A stretch of DNA of 64,000 nt from Dehalococcoidia bacterium (lineage in GTDB: Bacteria; Chloroflexota; Dehalococcoidia; DSTF01; WHTK01), in the NCBI GenBank assembly GCA_965197795.1, contig OZ240228.1, positions 740,824 to 804,823 of the forward strand, written 5' to 3'. Each line of letters begins with the position of its first letter. The stretch's first letter is position 1. Shown here one piece after another: positions 9,985-51,108 of the stretch. A program made the translations under genes and the position numbers. The notes below the pieces were generated by a model. It searched no databases. It saw nothing but the letters and a program-made list of their open reading frames with translations, and was not told the DNA's origin.

Positions 9985-11422
9985 ACATCTGACGATCTTG
10001 TTGGAGTTTCGATAGTTCCGCTTCTTTCCCGAGGTTGCGCGGGATGTAGTAGCGGCGGCCCTGGAGGCGCTCCGGCAGGTAGGTCTGGTCCGGGGCGACG
10101 CCGCTGTCGTGGTTGTGGGCGTAGTCGTAGCCCTTGCCGTAGCCGAGGCCCTTCATCAGCGGCGTGACGGCGTTGCGCAGGTGCAGCGGGACGGGGTCGT
10201 TGCGGGTGCGCTCGACGTCGGCGAGGGCGCGCGTGTAGGAGGCGCCGACGCTGTTGCTCTTGGGCGCCAGCGCCAGGTAGAGCGCAGTCTCCGCCATGGC
10301 GTAAAAGCCCGCCGGCATGCCGATGAAGTGGACCGCCTGCTGACACGCCGTCGCGACGCCGAGCGCCTGCGGGTCCGCGAGGCCGACGTCCTCCGAGGCG
10401 AGGATCACCATGCGCCGCACGATGAACAATGGGTCTTCGCCGGCCTCGATCATGCGGGCCAGCCAGTACAACGCGGCGTCAGGGTCGGAGCCGCGCAGCG
10501 ACTTGATGAAGGCGCTGATCGTGTCGTAGTGGGCGTCGCCCTGGCGGTCGTAGAGGTAGGTGCGGTGCTGCAGCGCCTCCTCGATGACGTCGCGCGTGAT
10601 GAGGCGAACGGGCTGACTCGGGCTGGTTGACGCTTCGCGTCCTGCGACAGGCTCAGGACGAACGGATTCATGGGTCGTTTTGGCTGCTCGGGTAGTGGAA
10701 GGCTGAGGCGCAGGCGCGACCGACATGACGGCGGCTTCGAGGGCGTTGAGCGCGATGCGGGCGTCGCCGCCGACGGAGGCCGCCAGCGCCGCCAGCGCTT
10801 CGGGCTCGACCTCGACGCCGAGGTCGCCGAGGCCGCGTTCGGGGTCGCTGGCGGCGCGCTGCAGCAGCTCGGCCAGCTGCGGTTCGTCGAGGGCTTTGAG
10901 GGTGAACACGCGGCAGCGTGAGAGCAGCGGGCCGATGACCTCGAACGACGGGTTCTCAGTTGTGGCGCCGATCAGCGTGACGGTGCCGTCTTCGACGTAG
11001 GGCAGCACGGCGTCCTGCTGCGCCTTGTTGAAGCGGTGGATCTCGTCGATGAACAGGATCGTCCTGGCGGGCCGGCGGTCGCGGGCTTCGGCGACGACGC
11101 GACGCAGGTCGGCGACGCCGGCGGAGACGGCCGAGAGCCCGACGAAGCGGGCGTCCCCCTGGGCGGCGATGATGCGTGCCAGCGTGGTCTTGCCGGCGCC
11201 GGGCGGTCCCCAGAGGATGATCGAGGGGAGCTGACCGACCTCGATCAGGCGGCGCAGGATCTTGCCCTCGCCGACGATGTGCTGCTGCCCGACGTACTCA
11301 TCCAGGGTGCGGGGTCGCATGCGCGCGGCAAGCGGCGCGCCGGCAGGATCGTCTTCGAGGGCCGGCGCGGTGTCGTTGAAGAGGCCGGGCTGCGGGCCCG
11401 CGGGTCGTTGGGCGCGAGGCAT
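9983..11422 (-). CDS. rarA: Replication-associated recombination protein A (RarA/MgsA) with an internal insertion of about 30 aa
   Basis: [72 protein letters not shown]. Confidence 0.97.
10636..10665. repeat. 30-bp palindromic REP-like element inside the rarA coding region
   Basis: cgcgtcctgcgacaggctcaggacgaacgg; 29/30 identical to 48890-48919 in recG. Confidence 0.9.
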
Positions 11423-11518
11423 AGGGCGATCTTAGTCCAAAGCGCAACGGATGAGGTGGCGCCTATGGGCGATCAGTCTCGGCCGATGAATCGCGATTCG
11501 TAGTAGTATTCGGCTGGT

Positions 11519-48488: not shown

Positions 48489-48582
48489 AGCCGTCGTAGG
48501 GTAACAAAGGCGCGGTGGTGGGACAAGCGCAGGCTGATAGCTGCGAACGGATGCGCTATGCTGCGGGAGTAAGGGGTTCAGC

Positions 48583-51108
48583 GTGAATCGCGTCGTCAGT
48601 CCCGCCCGACGCCCTTCGACAAGCTCAGGACGAGCCGGCCAAGCCCGCTCCCGGCCCGAGAGCGAGGCCGTCGTCAGGTTCCGCAAAGTCATCGAGCTGG
48701 AGCTGCGCCGCGGCTGCGACGACGGCGCGGTAATCGGCGGCATCGACGGCTTTCTCAAGAACGCGCGGCGGGACAAGGGCGTCGCGGCGAGGATCGACGC
48801 GGTCGAGTCGCCGAAGGCGTATCGGGAGCTCGCACCAGCGGCCCGCGAGCGCTGGCTGCGGGGCGTCCTGGCGGCCAAGGCGCAGAGTTCGCGTCCTTCG
48901 ACAGGCTCAGGACGAACGGGTTCAAGGTCGGGTTCGAAGCCGAAGCCTGGTCAGCAATCGCGTCCTTCGACGAGCTCAGGACGAACGGACTCAACAACGA
49001 GTCACGATCCTGCTGCGCCAGCGCCGCCGAACGATCCGTTGGACGCGGACGTCACAGCAGTGAAGGGCGTCAAGGGCGCGATGCAGGCCAAGCTGGCGAA
49101 GCAGGGCGTGCAGACGGTGCGCGATCTGCTCTATCTGTTCCCGAATCGGCATAACGACTACGCGAACGTGCGGCGCATCTCAGGCCTCGTGCCGGATGAA
49201 CACCAGACGGCGATGGTCAGCGTGTGGAGCGCCGCGGTCGTACGCCTCGGTCGCCGTCCCGGCACGCAGGCCATGGTGGGCGACGAAACCGGGACGATGC
49301 GCGTCGTCTGGTTCAACCAGCCGTACCTGGCGGCGCAGCTCAAGACCAACGACCGCATCGTGCTGGCCGGCAAGGTGGGCCTGTTCAACCGCAGTAAGGT
49401 GATGGAGAACCCGGAGTGGGAGCGCGTCGGGGCCGAGGAGCTGACGCACACCGGCCGGCTGGTGCCGGTTTATCCGCTGACCCAGGGCATCGCCCAGCGC
49501 TCTCTGCGCCGCGTCGCCAAGGAGGCGGTGGACCGATTCGCAGGGCTCGCGAAGGAGCCGCTGCCGGACGATCTGCGTCAGCGCCACAAACTGCCGGAGC
49601 TGAGGCAGGCGCTGCGTCAGATGCACTACCCGGATTCGATGCCGCAGCACGAGGAGGCGCGGCGCCGCATCGCCTTCGACGAGCTGCTGGGCGTCCAGCT
49701 GGCCGTGCTCGAGCGGCGCCTGGCGTGGCAGGACGGCCGGTCGGCGCCGATGGGCGCGCAGGGGGTTGTCGAAGCGTACCGGCAGACGCTGCCGTGGCCG
49801 ATGACCGGGGCGCAGGACCGCGTGCTGAGCGACATCGTGGACGACCTGCGCCAGTCGCGGCCAATGGCGCGTCTTCTGCAGGGCGACGTGGGCTCGGGCA
49901 AGACAGCGGTCGCGGCGGCGGCTCTGGTCATCGCCGTGGCGAACCAGTACCAGGGCGTGCTGATGGCACCGACGGAGATCCTGGCGGAGCAGCACTACAA
50001 CACGCTGACCTCACTGCTGAACCGGCTTGAGGTTGGCGGGCGGCGGCTGCATATCGAGCTGCTGACGGGGTCGACGGCGGCCAAATCGAAGCAGGCGATC
50101 GTGGACGGCATCGCCTCGGGCGACGTGGACGTCGTCGTGGGGACGCATGCGGTTATCCAGGAAGGCGTGTCGTTCCACAAGCTGGGCCTGGCCGTGGTGG
50201 ACGAGCAGCACCGCTTTGGCGTGATGCAGCGGGCGGCGCTGAAGGACCGCGTGCTGGAGACCGGTCAGGCGACGCCGCACCTGCTGGTCATGTCGGCGAC
50301 GCCGATCCCACGCACGCTGGCGCTGACGTTCTTCGGCGACCTCGACGTCTCGGTGATCGACGAAATGCCGCCGGGGCGGCTGCCGGTGCAGACGCATTTC
50401 GTGGCGCCGGACGACCGCGCCGACGCGTACTGCTTCGTGCGCGAGCAGGTCACGGCCGGCCGTCAGGTGTTCGTCGTCTGCCCCCTGATCGAGGAGTCAG
50501 CTGCGCTGCAGACGCGGTCGGCGGTGCAGGAGTACGAGCGGCTGTCGAAGGAGGTGTTCCCCGACCTGAAGCTGGGGCTGCTGCACGGCCGCATGTCGTC
50601 CAAGGACAAGGAGTCGGTGCTGGAGGCGTTTCGCCGTGGCGAGCTGCATATCCTGGTCGCGACCACGGTGATCGAGGTAGGCATCGACATTCCGAACGCG
50701 AGCGTCATGGCGATCGAAGGTGCGGACCGCTTCGGGCTGGCGCAGCTACACCAGCTTAGAGGCCGTGTCGGTCGCGGCGGGGAGCAGAGCTTCTGCTTGC
50801 TGCTCTCGGACGACCCGTCGGAGACGGCGCTGGAGCGCCTGCGGCTTCTGGAGGAGCACAACGACGGCTTTGCGCTGGCGGAGGCGGACCTGCGTTCGAG
50901 AGGGCCGGGCGACTACTTCGGCACGCGGCAGAGCGGCATGCCCGAGTTCCAGGCGGCGGATTTCTCCGACGTGAAGCTGATCGAAACGGCGCGACGCGAG
51001 GCTCAGCAGCTGCTGGCGGACGACCCCGGGCTGGCGCAGCCGGAGCACCGCGAGCTGGCGGCGGCGGTTGGCCGCATGCGGCGCATCGTCACGGGCGAGG
51101 CGGGGTGA
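48583..51108 (+). CDS. recG: ATP-dependent DNA helicase RecG carrying three in-frame REP-like elements
   Basis: LLQGDVGSGKT, MAPTEILAEQH, VVDEQHRFG, MSATPIPRTL, QLHQLRGRVGRG, DGFALAEADL..RGPG. Confidence 0.97.
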   Translation: MNRVVSPARRPSTSSGRAGQARSRPESEAVVRFRKVIELELRRGCDDGAVIGGIDGFLKNARRDKGVAARIDAVESPKAYRELAPAARERWLRGVLAAKAQSSRPSTGSGRTGSRSGSKPKPGQQSRPSTSSGRTDSTTSHDPAAPAPPNDPLDADVTAVKGVKGAMQAKLAKQGVQTVRDLLYLFPNRHNDYANVRRISGLVPDEHQTAMVSVWSAAVVRLGRRPGTQAMVGDETGTMRVVWFNQPYLAAQLKTNDRIVLAGKVGLFNRSKVMENPEWERVGAEELTHTGRLVPVYPLTQGIAQRSLRRVAKEAVDRFAGLAKEPLPDDLRQRHKLPELRQALRQMHYPDSMPQHEEARRRIAFDELLGVQLAVLERRLAWQDGRSAPMGAQGVVEAYRQTLPWPMTGAQDRVLSDIVDDLRQSRPMARLLQGDVGSGKTAVAAAALVIAVANQYQGVLMAPTEILAEQHYNTLTSLLNRLEVGGRRLHIELLTGSTAAKSKQAIVDGIASGDVDVVVGTHAVIQEGVSFHKLGLAVVDEQHRFGVMQRAALKDRVLETGQATPHLLVMSATPIPRTLALTFFGDLDVSVIDEMPPGRLPVQTHFVAPDDRADAYCFVREQVTAGRQVFVVCPLIEESAALQTRSAVQEYERLSKEVFPDLKLGLLHGRMSSKDKESVLEAFRRGELHILVATTVIEVGIDIPNASVMAIEGADRFGLAQLHQLRGRVGRGGEQSFCLLLSDDPSETALERLRLLEEHNDGFALAEADLRSRGPGDYFGTRQSGMPEFQAADFSDVKLIETARREAQQLLADDPGLAQPEHRELAAAVGRMRRIVTGEAG
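48610..48632. repeat. REP-like element copy in the recG N-terminus
   Basis: cgcccttcgacaagctcaggacg, encoding RPSTSSGR. Confidence 0.85.
48890..48919. repeat. REP-like element copy in the recG linker
   Basis: cgcgtccttcgacaggctcaggacgaacgg, encoding RPSTGSGRT. Confidence 0.9.
48959..48988. repeat. REP-like element copy in the recG linker
   Basis: cgcgtccttcgacgagctcaggacgaacgg, 28/30 identical to 48890-48919. Confidence 0.9.

What the first reader, a model, noticed from the sequence alone, without database searches (positions are those of the whole stretch)
10636..48988. Mobile palindromic element inserted in frame in RarA and RecG (coding REP insertions)
Seen: the 30-mer cgcgtcctKcgacRRgctcaggacgaacgg occurs in rarA (10636-10665) and twice in recG (48890, 48959), with a third partial recG copy at 48610; identity is 28-29/30 across 38 kb. 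It is read on opposite strands and so encodes unrelated peptides: [11 protein letters not shown] in RarA and RPSTGSGRT/RPSTSSGRT in RecG. This argues for DNA-level spread rather than protein conservation. Both sites are elongated low-complexity linkers (about 41 aa between AAV and LITRDV in RarA; before the RecG wedge domain). No alternative in-frame start lies between the first recG copy and the conserved N-terminus. Related copies are intergenic. Known: Rickettsia palindromic elements insert in frame into proteins. Inference: an analogous, possibly undescribed system in this lineage. Both hosts act on branched DNA or stalled forks, but n is only 2.
Basis: partly seen in the sequence, partly recalled or inferred. 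Interest (0 to 1): 0.8.

Follow-up and report, generated by a model that had tools for sequence, protein, structure and literature searches.

The report
Hairpin repeat inserted in-frame in RarA, RecG
A 30-base hairpin-forming DNA repeat found across many bacterial phyla, whose full form flanks a tiny GIY-YIG nuclease gene, has landed in frame inside flexible linkers of the RarA and RecG genes of this Dehalococcoidia genome; both kinds of event are already described for related repeats, so this is a new variant, not a new principle.

Summary
Three 27-29/30-identical 30-mers and one degenerate copy sit in rarA (read antisense) and recG. All are in frame, in linkers that are short or differently filled in orthologues.

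The repeat is a hairpin module: a 5-6 bp covarying stem, a near-invariant 11-nt loop TCGACARGCTC, and a GA(A/G)CGG tag. Exact copies occur in Chloroflexota, Proteobacteria and other phyla.

Two inverted units flank a 94-aa single-domain GIY-YIG gene in 45 of 80 loci chosen by protein alone. That protein is homologous to Neisseria SsnA, 37% identical. SsnA is a site-specific ssDNA nuclease flanked by its own hairpin repeats (Chenal 2025).

So this looks like an Ssn/SRM-like, REP-like system with a motif outside the published consensus.

In-frame REP insertions, including in repair genes, were described by Di Nocera (2013) and for Rickettsia RPEs. Other hosts of this same unit are ribonucleotide reductase, NirB, a CoA-transferase and a molybdopterin oxidoreductase. 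The branched-DNA link is therefore not specific.

Mobilisation by the nuclease is inferred, not shown, and no such gene lies in this window. Verdict: a new variant of a known kind, of moderate interest.

The parts
9983..11422 (-). rarA (mgsA), 479 aa; host gene 1
   Evidence: Pfam RuvB_N/AAA, AAA_assoc_2 and MgsA_C. E. coli MgsA 3pvs aligns to residues 26-231 and 273-471, which leaves about 30 extra residues between the two blocks.
10604..10726 (-). Expanded RarA linker (residues 233-273) that holds the insert
   Evidence: In 71 of 120 orthologues, the segment that spans this linker plus its conserved flanks (window residues 222-282) is 33 residues or fewer, mostly 30-31 (the empty state); in this window it is 61 residues. 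The AF2 model has residues 234-271 as coil with pLDDT 56-65.
10636..10665 (+). Repeat unit 1. The hairpin module is written on the + strand and read antisense as [11 protein letters not shown].
   Evidence: DNA alignment with the empty orthologue P0003 and the dimer-bearing P0005.
10615..10630 (+). Possible decayed partner unit of an ancestral inverted dimer (tentative)
   Evidence: It aligns 10/16 with the intact second unit of the P0005 dimer, with the same 5-nt spacing. The match is weak and could be chance.
48583..51108 (+). recG, 841 aa; host gene 2
   Evidence: Pfam RecG_wedge, DEAD, Helicase_C and RecG_dom3_C. T. maritima RecG 1gm5 aligns from residue 153. The N-terminal domain of about 100 aa and the MNRV start are conserved in Chloroflexota RecG. 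An AAGGGG Shine-Dalgarno-like motif lies upstream of GTG 48583.
48610..48638 (+). Degenerate unit near the RecG N-terminus (RPSTSSGRA). It is a window-specific insertion of about 21 nt.
   Evidence: D8. It is absent from P0121, P0122 and P0123 in the DNA alignment.
48890..48919 (+). Repeat unit 2, in the RecG inter-domain linker (RPSTGSGRT)
   Evidence: An identical 25-nt core lies at the orthologous place in P0122, a decayed copy in P0121, and nothing in P0123.
48959..48988 (+). Repeat unit 3, in the RecG inter-domain linker (RPSTSSGRT)
   Evidence: A decayed copy (19/25) lies at the orthologous place in P0121.
48132..48186 (.). Intergenic inverted dimer of variant units between rpe and rpmB, tags outward
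   Evidence: It folds as a long DNA hairpin, -16.4 kcal/mol, z = -2.2.
41886..41938 (.). Intergenic inverted dimer of variant units

Best explanation
**What it is.** The 30-mer is one unit of a REP-like hairpin repeat that probably acts as single-stranded DNA. It has a 5-6 bp stem that covaries, a near-invariant 11-nt loop TCGACARGCTC, and a GA(A/G)CGG tag on one side.

**Its forms.**
- The complete form is a cassette: two units in inverted orientation, tags outward, flank a gene of about 94 aa for a single-domain GIY-YIG nuclease homologous to SsnA.
- Shorter forms lack the gene: inverted dimers, solo units and tandem arrays. They are scattered through genomes of several phyla.

**In this window.** Solo copies, or a decayed dimer, were inserted into rarA and recG. 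They persist because they fall in disordered, length-variable linkers, keep the reading frame, and are read in frames without stop codons (5 of 6 frames are open). The encoded peptides VRPEPVAGR and RPSTSSGRT are passengers.

**Shown here:** the anatomy of the unit, its distribution, the nuclease association, the homology to SsnA, and empty versus filled sites in orthologues.

**From the literature:** SsnA-type enzymes bind their hairpin repeat only as ssDNA and cut beside it.

**Inferred:** the cognate nuclease recognises this unit and is responsible for its multiplication, by a mechanism not yet known for any Ssn system.
For: **Repeat versus chance.**

**Distribution.** At least 119 genome stretches carry exact 22-mers. 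By record title they come from Chloroflexota/Dehalococcoidia, Sphingomonadales, Burkholderiales, Methylococcales, Thermodesulfobacteriota, Cloacimonadota and Dadabacteria.

**Hairpin covariation on 74 units.**
- 89% of cells are paired.
- 56 cells changed on both sides, against 15.5 +/- 3.2 in shuffles.
- The covariation score is 0.394, against at most 0.085 for the slid controls.

**Cassette.**
- Four of the 119 loci carry the full cassette.
- Of 80 metagenome loci chosen only by GIY-YIG protein similarity, 45 have the unit on both sides in inverted orientation and 16 on one side.
- Chance is about 2.5e-3 per 200-nt flank.
- Conservation stops exactly after ...CGG. The left and right units of one cassette are more alike than units of different cassettes, 27.3 against 23.5 of 34.

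**Protein.**
- It matches Pfam GIY-YIG only.
- It is 37% identical to N. gonorrhoeae SsnA, with hhalign probability 97.9% and E 6e-13. That SsnA gene is itself flanked by NTS repeats.
- Ssn biochemistry is described in PMC11893778.

**In-frame insertion.**
- RarA linker: 71 of 120 orthologues are empty and 49 expanded. Of the expanded ones, 14 carry VRPExVEG-like peptides and 5 carry peptides of the inverse unit.
- RarA DNA: P0003 is empty and P0005 has a full dimer.
- RecG: the N-terminal domain is conserved and units are present, decayed or absent at orthologous places.
- No internal start codon occurs before codon 153.
- The RarA insert is modelled as coil.
Against: - No GIY-YIG ORF lies in the 64-kb window. 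I could not check the rest of this genome or show that any Chloroflexota genome carries the cassette. All named cassette hosts are Proteobacteria.
- No transposition has been shown for any Ssn system. The published role is restriction of transforming ssDNA.
- Solo hairpins are thermodynamically unremarkable, -5 to -7 kcal/mol with z near 0. The structure rests on covariation alone.
- The unit does not fit the published SRM consensus, 0 of 150.
- The protein scores higher against the UPF0213 structure 1zg2 (62 bits) than Neisseria SsnA does against that structure (16 bits). Membership of the Ssn clade proper is therefore open.
- No target-site duplication was evident.
- 19 of the 80 GIY-YIG loci show no unit at my threshold.
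Confidence: 0.7

Rival explanations
1. The GIY-YIG gene is a free-standing homing endonuclease gene. It inserts into the spacer of pre-existing hairpin dimers, as IS110/IS1111 insert into REPs. The units would then be its target rather than its product, and would spread by another route such as recombination, template switching or another enzyme.
For: Gene-less dimers have the same geometry as the cassette, with tags outward. Cassettes are rare relative to units, 4 of 119 loci. No cassette lies in the window. Many cassettes have non-identical left and right stems, for example L140 and L154.
Against: Distances from unit to start and stop codon are tight and reproducible, about 28 nt and 3-30 nt. 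The left and right units of a cassette co-vary. The characterised homologue SsnA cuts ssDNA beside its repeat and not dsDNA, which is unlike homing enzymes (PMC11893778).
Confidence: 0.2
2. The recG copies are not translated. The true RecG starts at TTG 49039 or GTG 49060, and the repeats lie in a 5' leader, as Di Nocera et al. suspected for many N-terminal 'intragenic' REPs.
For: In-frame TTG, GTG and ATG codons exist at codons 153, 160 and 167, just before the part that aligns with solved RecG structures.
Against: The upstream region of about 100 aa is a domain conserved across Dehalococcoidia and Anaerolineae RecG proteins, fused in one ORF. Substitutions against P0121 and P0122 are most frequent at third codon positions, 9 of 16 and 9 of 17. 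The MNRV start is conserved. A Shine-Dalgarno-like AAGGGG precedes GTG 48583.
Confidence: 0.07
3. The shared sequence reflects selection on the peptides as a functional linker motif, or is an assembly artefact, and not a DNA repeat.
For: VRPExVEG-like peptides recur in the same RarA loop in 14 orthologues, always in the same frame.
Against: The two genes read the unit on opposite strands and obtain unrelated peptides. Identical DNA occurs in intergenic regions and in unrelated proteins of other phyla. Independent assemblies carry the unit at orthologous places. The closest RarA relative has a different hairpin repeat at the same spot.
Confidence: 0.03

Closest known systems
Ssn nucleases with NTS/SRM hairpin repeats (Chenal et al. 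2025, Nat Commun 16:2388; PMC11893778)
   Same: - The nuclease is a 94-aa single-domain GIY-YIG protein.
- Its gene is flanked on both sides by inverted hairpin repeats: 42% of homologues in that paper, 45 of 80 loci here.
- Hundreds of gene-less copies occur, in many phyla.
- The protein is homologous: 37% identity, hhalign probability 97.9%.
   Different: - The motif is unrelated in sequence and fails the SRM consensus, 0 of 150.
- The loop is 11 nt and conserved, against 4-5 nt. The stem is 5-6 bp and covaries, against 8-9 bp.
- The conserved tag faces away from the gene.
- The protein is nearer to UPF0213 (1zg2) than Neisseria SsnA is.
- NTS repeats are rarely intragenic (2%). No biochemistry exists for this pair.
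GTAG- and CGTC-tagged REPs, including intragenic ones (Di Nocera et al. 2013, BMC Genomics 14:522; PMC3733652)
   Same: They are short palindromic units that occur as singletons and head-to-head dimers. They lie mostly downstream of genes, and some sit in frame inside ORFs. Hosts often include replication and repair proteins. N-terminal cases need a check of the start codon.
   Different: There is no GTAG or CGTC tag architecture here. The encoded peptides differ: VIPAKAGI, DSRLRGND and DGRVKPGHD there, against VRPELVEG and PSTSSGRT here. The families in that paper are mostly species- or class-specific, whereas this unit is nearly identical across phyla.
Rickettsia palindromic elements (RPE; own knowledge: Ogata et al. 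2000; cited in PMC3733652)
   Same: They are palindromic repeats inserted in frame in protein-coding genes. The inserts are tolerated at permissive sites, and the reading frames stay open.
   Different: RPE-1 is 100-150 bp and restricted to Rickettsia. RPE-4 and RPE-6 are CGTC REPs. There is no sequence relationship. The host here is a free-living Chloroflexota lineage.
REP/REPIN-RAYT systems (Nunvar 2010; Bertels and Rainey 2011)
   Same: A single gene is flanked by inverted hairpin units. Gene-less inverted doublets (REPIN-like) and solo units are abundant. The repeat is probably recognised as ssDNA.
   Different: The enzyme is a GIY-YIG nuclease, not an HUH Y1 transposase. There is no GTAG tag. 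REPINs are lineage-specific and inherited vertically, whereas this unit crosses phyla.

Membership tests
Intragenic REP/RPE-type insertion (palindromic repeat carried in frame by a gene) | The same DNA repeat is present at unrelated loci, beyond chance | tested here: met
Intragenic REP/RPE-type insertion (palindromic repeat carried in frame by a gene) | The unit is an (imperfect) palindrome or hairpin | tested here: met
   Covariation of a 5-6 bp stem. The folding energy alone is not distinctive.
Intragenic REP/RPE-type insertion (palindromic repeat carried in frame by a gene) | The reading frame is preserved, and orthologues lacking the insert exist | tested here: met
   RarA. RecG.
Intragenic REP/RPE-type insertion (palindromic repeat carried in frame by a gene) | The insert lies in a loop or linker, not in a folded core | tested here: met
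   RarA: the gap in the alignment to 3pvs and coil in the AF2 model. RecG: a hypervariable linker between conserved domains.
Ssn nuclease / SRM repeat system | Single-domain GIY-YIG protein of about 94 aa, homologous to SsnA | tested here: met
   Pfam gives GIY-YIG only, and the proteins are 94-96 aa. hhalign against N. gonorrhoeae SsnA gives probability 97.9%, E 6e-13.
Ssn nuclease / SRM repeat system | The gene is flanked 5' and 3' by inverted hairpin repeats that also occur in many gene-less copies | tested here: met
   45 of 80 loci on both sides and 16 of 80 on one side. Gene-less copies.
Ssn nuclease / SRM repeat system | The repeat fits the SRM consensus HGTCWYN(0-2)YYVSBRHN(0-5)WNVSBRGN(0-2)RNCYNB | tested here: not met
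   0 of 150 units and 0 hits in the window. The same regex does find the NTS copies around N. gonorrhoeae ssnA.
Ssn nuclease / SRM repeat system | The protein falls in the CDD cd10448 clade | not testable with these tools
   No CDD is available here. The protein scores 62 bits against UPF0213 1zg2, whereas Neisseria SsnA scores 16 bits, so it may belong to the neighbouring UPF0213 group.
Ssn nuclease / SRM repeat system | Site-specific cleavage of ssDNA next to the repeat, with no activity on dsDNA or RNA | not testable with these tools
   This needs biochemistry.
REP/REPIN-RAYT | An associated HUH Y1 (RAYT) transposase and a GTAG-type tag | tested here: not met
   The flanked gene is GIY-YIG. 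The unit has no GTAG tag.
MITE (TIR element with target-site duplication) | Terminal inverted repeats plus a direct target duplication | tested here: inconclusive
   Dimers and a palindrome of about 130 bp in beta- and gammaproteobacteria have inverted ends. No consistent duplication was seen next to the cassette ends by inspection. This was not quantified.
Curated RNA family (Rfam) | A match to an Rfam covariance model | tested here: not met
   The window at the gathering threshold gave only a tRNA. Six repeat-rich loci at E <= 1 gave nothing on the unit.

The most novel reading that the evidence does not exclude
This would be a second, so far undescribed class of Ssn-type systems. A UPF0213-like GIY-YIG nuclease is paired with a hairpin whose 11-nt loop is almost invariant from Chloroflexota to Gammaproteobacteria. 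That conservation implies a conserved protein-ssDNA recognition code and horizontal spread. In Dehalococcoidia, its gene-less units repeatedly colonise, multiply in and decay within the same linkers of housekeeping proteins such as RarA, RecG and class II RNR. They would thus act as a steady source of new disordered protein segments.
Probability: 0.45. Interest if true: 0.65.

Novelty: new variant of a known kind. Interest (0 to 1): 0.5.

Why it matters
- **Extends Ssn to a second repeat class.** It links a very common 'junk' repeat to the recently discovered Ssn class of ssDNA-specific nucleases. This repeat is the source of many spurious hypothetical proteins with [25 protein letters not shown] or VRPELVEG in metagenome annotations. 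The link reaches a motif and a protein subgroup outside the published definition.
- **Possible tool value.** Ssn enzymes are being developed as programmable ssDNA cutters. A new enzyme-motif pair with a long conserved loop would be a useful additional specificity.
- **Annotation.** The repeat explains length variation in RarA, RecG, RNR and other proteins of Chloroflexota. It also warns against reading these segments as functional motifs.
- **Natural experiment.** The same loop is hit by two different hairpin repeat families in close relatives. This shows how repeats create and turn over disordered linkers.

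Tried and rejected
- **Rfam.** The whole window at gathering thresholds, and six repeat-rich loci at E <= 1, gave no family for the hairpin.
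- **Literature search by strings.** Searching nucleotide or peptide strings of the repeat returned only unrelated primer hits. Searching 'GIY-YIG' with 'repetitive extragenic palindromic', YhbQ, UPF0213 or COG2827 returned nothing useful.
- **Filing the unit as a CGTC REP or SRM.** Rejected. The peptides and architecture differ and the SRM regex matches 0 of 150 units.
- **Hairpin stability as evidence.** Rejected. The z-scores of solo units are about 0.
- **A DNA-repair-specific targeting idea.** Rejected. The same unit is in frame in RNR, NirB, a CoA-transferase and a molybdopterin oxidoreductase. Several other long 'ORFs' over units were antisense artefacts of high G+C.
- **A GIY-YIG gene in the window.** None was found.
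- **The nuclease in Chloroflexota.** The top 120 homologues that carry names are Sphingomonadales or Pseudomonadota, so this stays open.
- **NCBIfam.** No model matches the nuclease.
- **Viral contigs.** 39 carry the unit, and six carry GIY-YIG relatives about 40% identical without the unit nearby. I did not pursue this.

Full report
**Observation.**
- The 30-mer occurs exactly where stated: 10636-10665, 48890-48919 and 48959-48988, all on the + strand. None is expected by chance.
- Pairwise identity is 29, 28 and 27 of 30, and similarity extends to about 40 nt.
- A degenerate copy lies at 48610-48638.
- A relaxed scan anchored on the loop found two further intergenic inverted dimers of variant units, at 41886-41938 and 48132-48186.

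**Host genes.**
- rarA is the minus-strand ORF 9983..11422. It has the RuvB_N/AAA, AAA_assoc_2 and MgsA_C domains.
- E. coli MgsA (3pvs) aligns to residues 26-231 and 273-471, so about 30 residues are extra between the AAA+ lid and the C-terminal domain. The unit is read antisense there as [11 protein letters not shown].
- recG is the plus-strand ORF 48583..51108. Solved RecG structures align only from residue 153.
- The upstream region of about 100 residues is a domain conserved in Dehalococcoidia and Anaerolineae RecG proteins. The MNRV start is conserved in the closest relatives.
- No in-frame start codon exists between codon 1 and codon 153, and a Shine-Dalgarno-like AAGGGG precedes GTG 48583.
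- Substitutions against two orthologues are most frequent at third codon positions.
- All three recG copies are therefore most probably translated. Two lie in the hypervariable linker between the N-terminal domain and the wedge domain. One lies in the N-terminal tail.

**Empty and filled sites.**
- RarA protein: I measured the segment spanning the linker and its conserved flanks (window residues 222-282, 61 residues here). Among 120 orthologues (Dehalococcoidia MAGs by source names) it is 33 residues or fewer in 71 and expanded to 36-138 residues in 49.
- Of the expanded ones, 14 carry VRPExVEG-like peptides, which is the same unit in the same frame. Five carry STSSPRT or STSSGR-like peptides of the inverse unit. 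Twenty carry peptides of a second hairpin repeat, SPSP..ERG.GGEV.
- RarA DNA: P0003 is empty. P0005 has a complete inverted dimer, unit + 5 nt + unit, in frame.
- The window has the first unit intact, followed by a stretch that may be the decayed partner (10/16 identical, tentative).
- P0002, the closest relative at 86% identity, has the second repeat family at the same place.
- RecG DNA: P0122 has an identical 25-nt core at the place of the 48890 copy, although the proteins are only 66% identical there. P0121 has decayed copies at both places and P0123 has none.
- The 48610 copy is a window-specific insertion of about 21 nt.
- An AlphaFold2 model of RarA places residues 234-271 in coil with pLDDT 56-65.

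**What the unit is.**
By record title the hosts are Chloroflexota/Dehalococcoidia, Sphingomonadales, Burkholderiales, Methylococcales, Thermodesulfobacteriota, Cloacimonadota and Dadabacteria.
- Units often pair with an inverted partner whose stem differs (GTGGT/ACCAC). They also form tandem arrays, or sit inside a palindrome of about 130 bp in beta- and gammaproteobacteria.
- Across 74 units the loop TCGACARGCTC and the GA(A/G)CGG tag are nearly invariant. Stem pairs 3-5 covary: 89% of cells are paired, 56 cells changed on both sides against 15.5 +/- 3.2 in shuffles, and the score is 0.394 against at most 0.085 for slid controls.
- Folding energy alone is unremarkable for solo units.
- Five of the six reading frames of the unit are open. 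Only one reverse frame has a TGA (read directly from the sequence).

**Association with a nuclease.**
- Clustering all ORFs in the 119 loci brought out a GIY-YIG ORF of about 95 aa in four loci. Each is flanked by CCGTTCGTCCTGAGCTTGTCGAAGGACGCG ... CGCGTCCTTCGACAAGCTCAGGACGAACGG, so the window's 30-mer is the terminal inverted repeat of this cassette.
- I then tested the link from the protein side. Of 80 metagenome loci retrieved only by similarity to these proteins, 45 have the unit core on both sides in inverted orientation, about 28 nt before the start codon and 3-30 nt after the stop. Sixteen have it on one side. Chance is about 2.5e-3 per flank.
- Conservation ends right after ...CGG. The two ends of one cassette resemble each other more than the ends of different cassettes.

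**Comparison with what is known.**
- Di Nocera et al. (2013) classified REPs into GTAG and CGTC superfamilies. They listed many intragenic in-frame REPs and noted that many lie in replication and repair genes. They warned that N-terminal cases may be extragenic, and found no transposase for the CGTC REPs.
- Chenal et al. (2025) showed that 94-aa single-domain GIY-YIG proteins (Ssn, cd10448) are site-specific ssDNA nucleases. Their genes are flanked by those CGTC-type hairpins (NTS/SRM), on both sides in 42% of homologues. They noted the IS-like architecture without showing transposition.
- A tblastn search of the plasmid collection recovered a mislabelled N. gonorrhoeae chromosome. Its 94-aa SsnA is flanked by NTS copies.
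- The proteins found here are 37% identical to that SsnA, with hhalign probability 97.9% and E 6e-13. They score higher against the UPF0213 structures 1zg2 and 1ywl (62 and 58 bits) than Neisseria SsnA does against 1zg2 (16 bits).
- The unit does not match the published SRM consensus in any of 150 cases, while the same regex finds the Neisseria NTS copies.
- The system therefore works like Ssn/SRM, but it is a distinct motif class with a divergent nuclease.
- I found no paper describing it. The searchable library lacks most subscription journals.

**Host range of in-frame copies.**
- In the genome sample the same unit lies in frame in four further proteins:
  - a class II ribonucleotide reductase (Dehalococcoidia, L011);
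  - NirB (Burkholderiales, L045, a dimer);
  - a double CoA-transferase III (Dehalococcoidia, L066);
  - a molybdopterin oxidoreductase (Lysobacterales, L024).
- All four were confirmed with Pfam domains.
- The frames seen in genuine cases are mostly VRPELVEG and PSTSSGRT, which are Pro/Gly/Ser-rich and suit linkers. This is an inference from few cases.
- The branched-DNA function shared by RarA and RecG is therefore probably incidental to their having long tolerant linkers.

**Mechanism and its limits.**
- Shown here: the anatomy, distribution, nuclease association, homology to SsnA, and insertion polymorphism among orthologues.
- From the literature: ssDNA-specific binding and cutting by Ssn enzymes.
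- Inferred: the cognate nuclease recognises this unit, and its activity underlies multiplication of the units. Insertions would be filtered by selection, so that only frame-preserving copies in tolerant linkers survive.
- Against: there is no nuclease gene in the window and none demonstrated in Chloroflexota. No target duplication was seen, and no Ssn transposition is known.
- The main rival is that the nuclease gene homes into pre-existing dimers.

**Verdict.** The finding is real and its core interpretation is right. It is a new variant of two known phenomena, intragenic REP-like insertions and Ssn-type nuclease-repeat systems. It is not a new category.

Noticed in passing
window 51122-51144; also RarA orthologues P0002, P0006, P0007 and others, and RecG orthologue P0121: A second hairpin repeat family, CCCTCTCC-loop-GGAGAGGG, with peptides such as SPSPxxERGxGGEV or PLSLRGEGE. 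One copy lies just after the recG stop codon in the window. It fills the same RarA loop in 20 orthologues, including the closest relative.
   Followed up: partly
window 41836-41851, 48083-48098 and 48218-48233; direct repeat 48072-48116 / 48207-48251: A third small hairpin, GCAGGATGAATCCTGC (CGGGATGAATCCCG in one copy), lies next to both intergenic unit dimers. At the rpe-rpmB spacer, a 45-nt direct repeat containing it brackets the dimer. This suggests a composite mosaic element like a BIME.
   Followed up: no
window 53551-53603, inside argS (ORF 52172..53887): A perfect 25-nt inverted repeat with a 3-nt spacer lies inside the arginyl-tRNA synthetase coding sequence. Alignment to solved ArgRS shows no length change there, so it is not a simple insertion. 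It remains unexplained.
   Followed up: partly
window, all four solo units (10636, 48610, 48890, 48959): All four solo units have the same orientation on the + strand although rarA and recG are on opposite strands. GC skew is positive across the whole window. With n = 4 this is not significant, but orientation relative to replication would matter for an ssDNA-specific enzyme.
   Followed up: no
L206-L244 (IMG/VR contigs): Exact copies of the unit occur on 39 contigs classed as viral. These could be prophage or host flanks, or a route for horizontal spread between phyla.
   Followed up: no
L107 (6 copies), L067, L061: Tandem arrays of the unit with periods of 36-48 bp. In L107 they lie within a 943-codon stop-free stretch and read LRQAQDERE repeatedly. 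Whether that stretch is a gene was not checked.
   Followed up: no
L203 (P0122) versus window 48890-48919: The 25-nt unit core is 100% identical between two genomes whose surrounding RecG N-terminal regions are only 66% identical at the protein level. This points to re-insertion, gene conversion among copies, or selection on the DNA sequence itself.
   Followed up: partly
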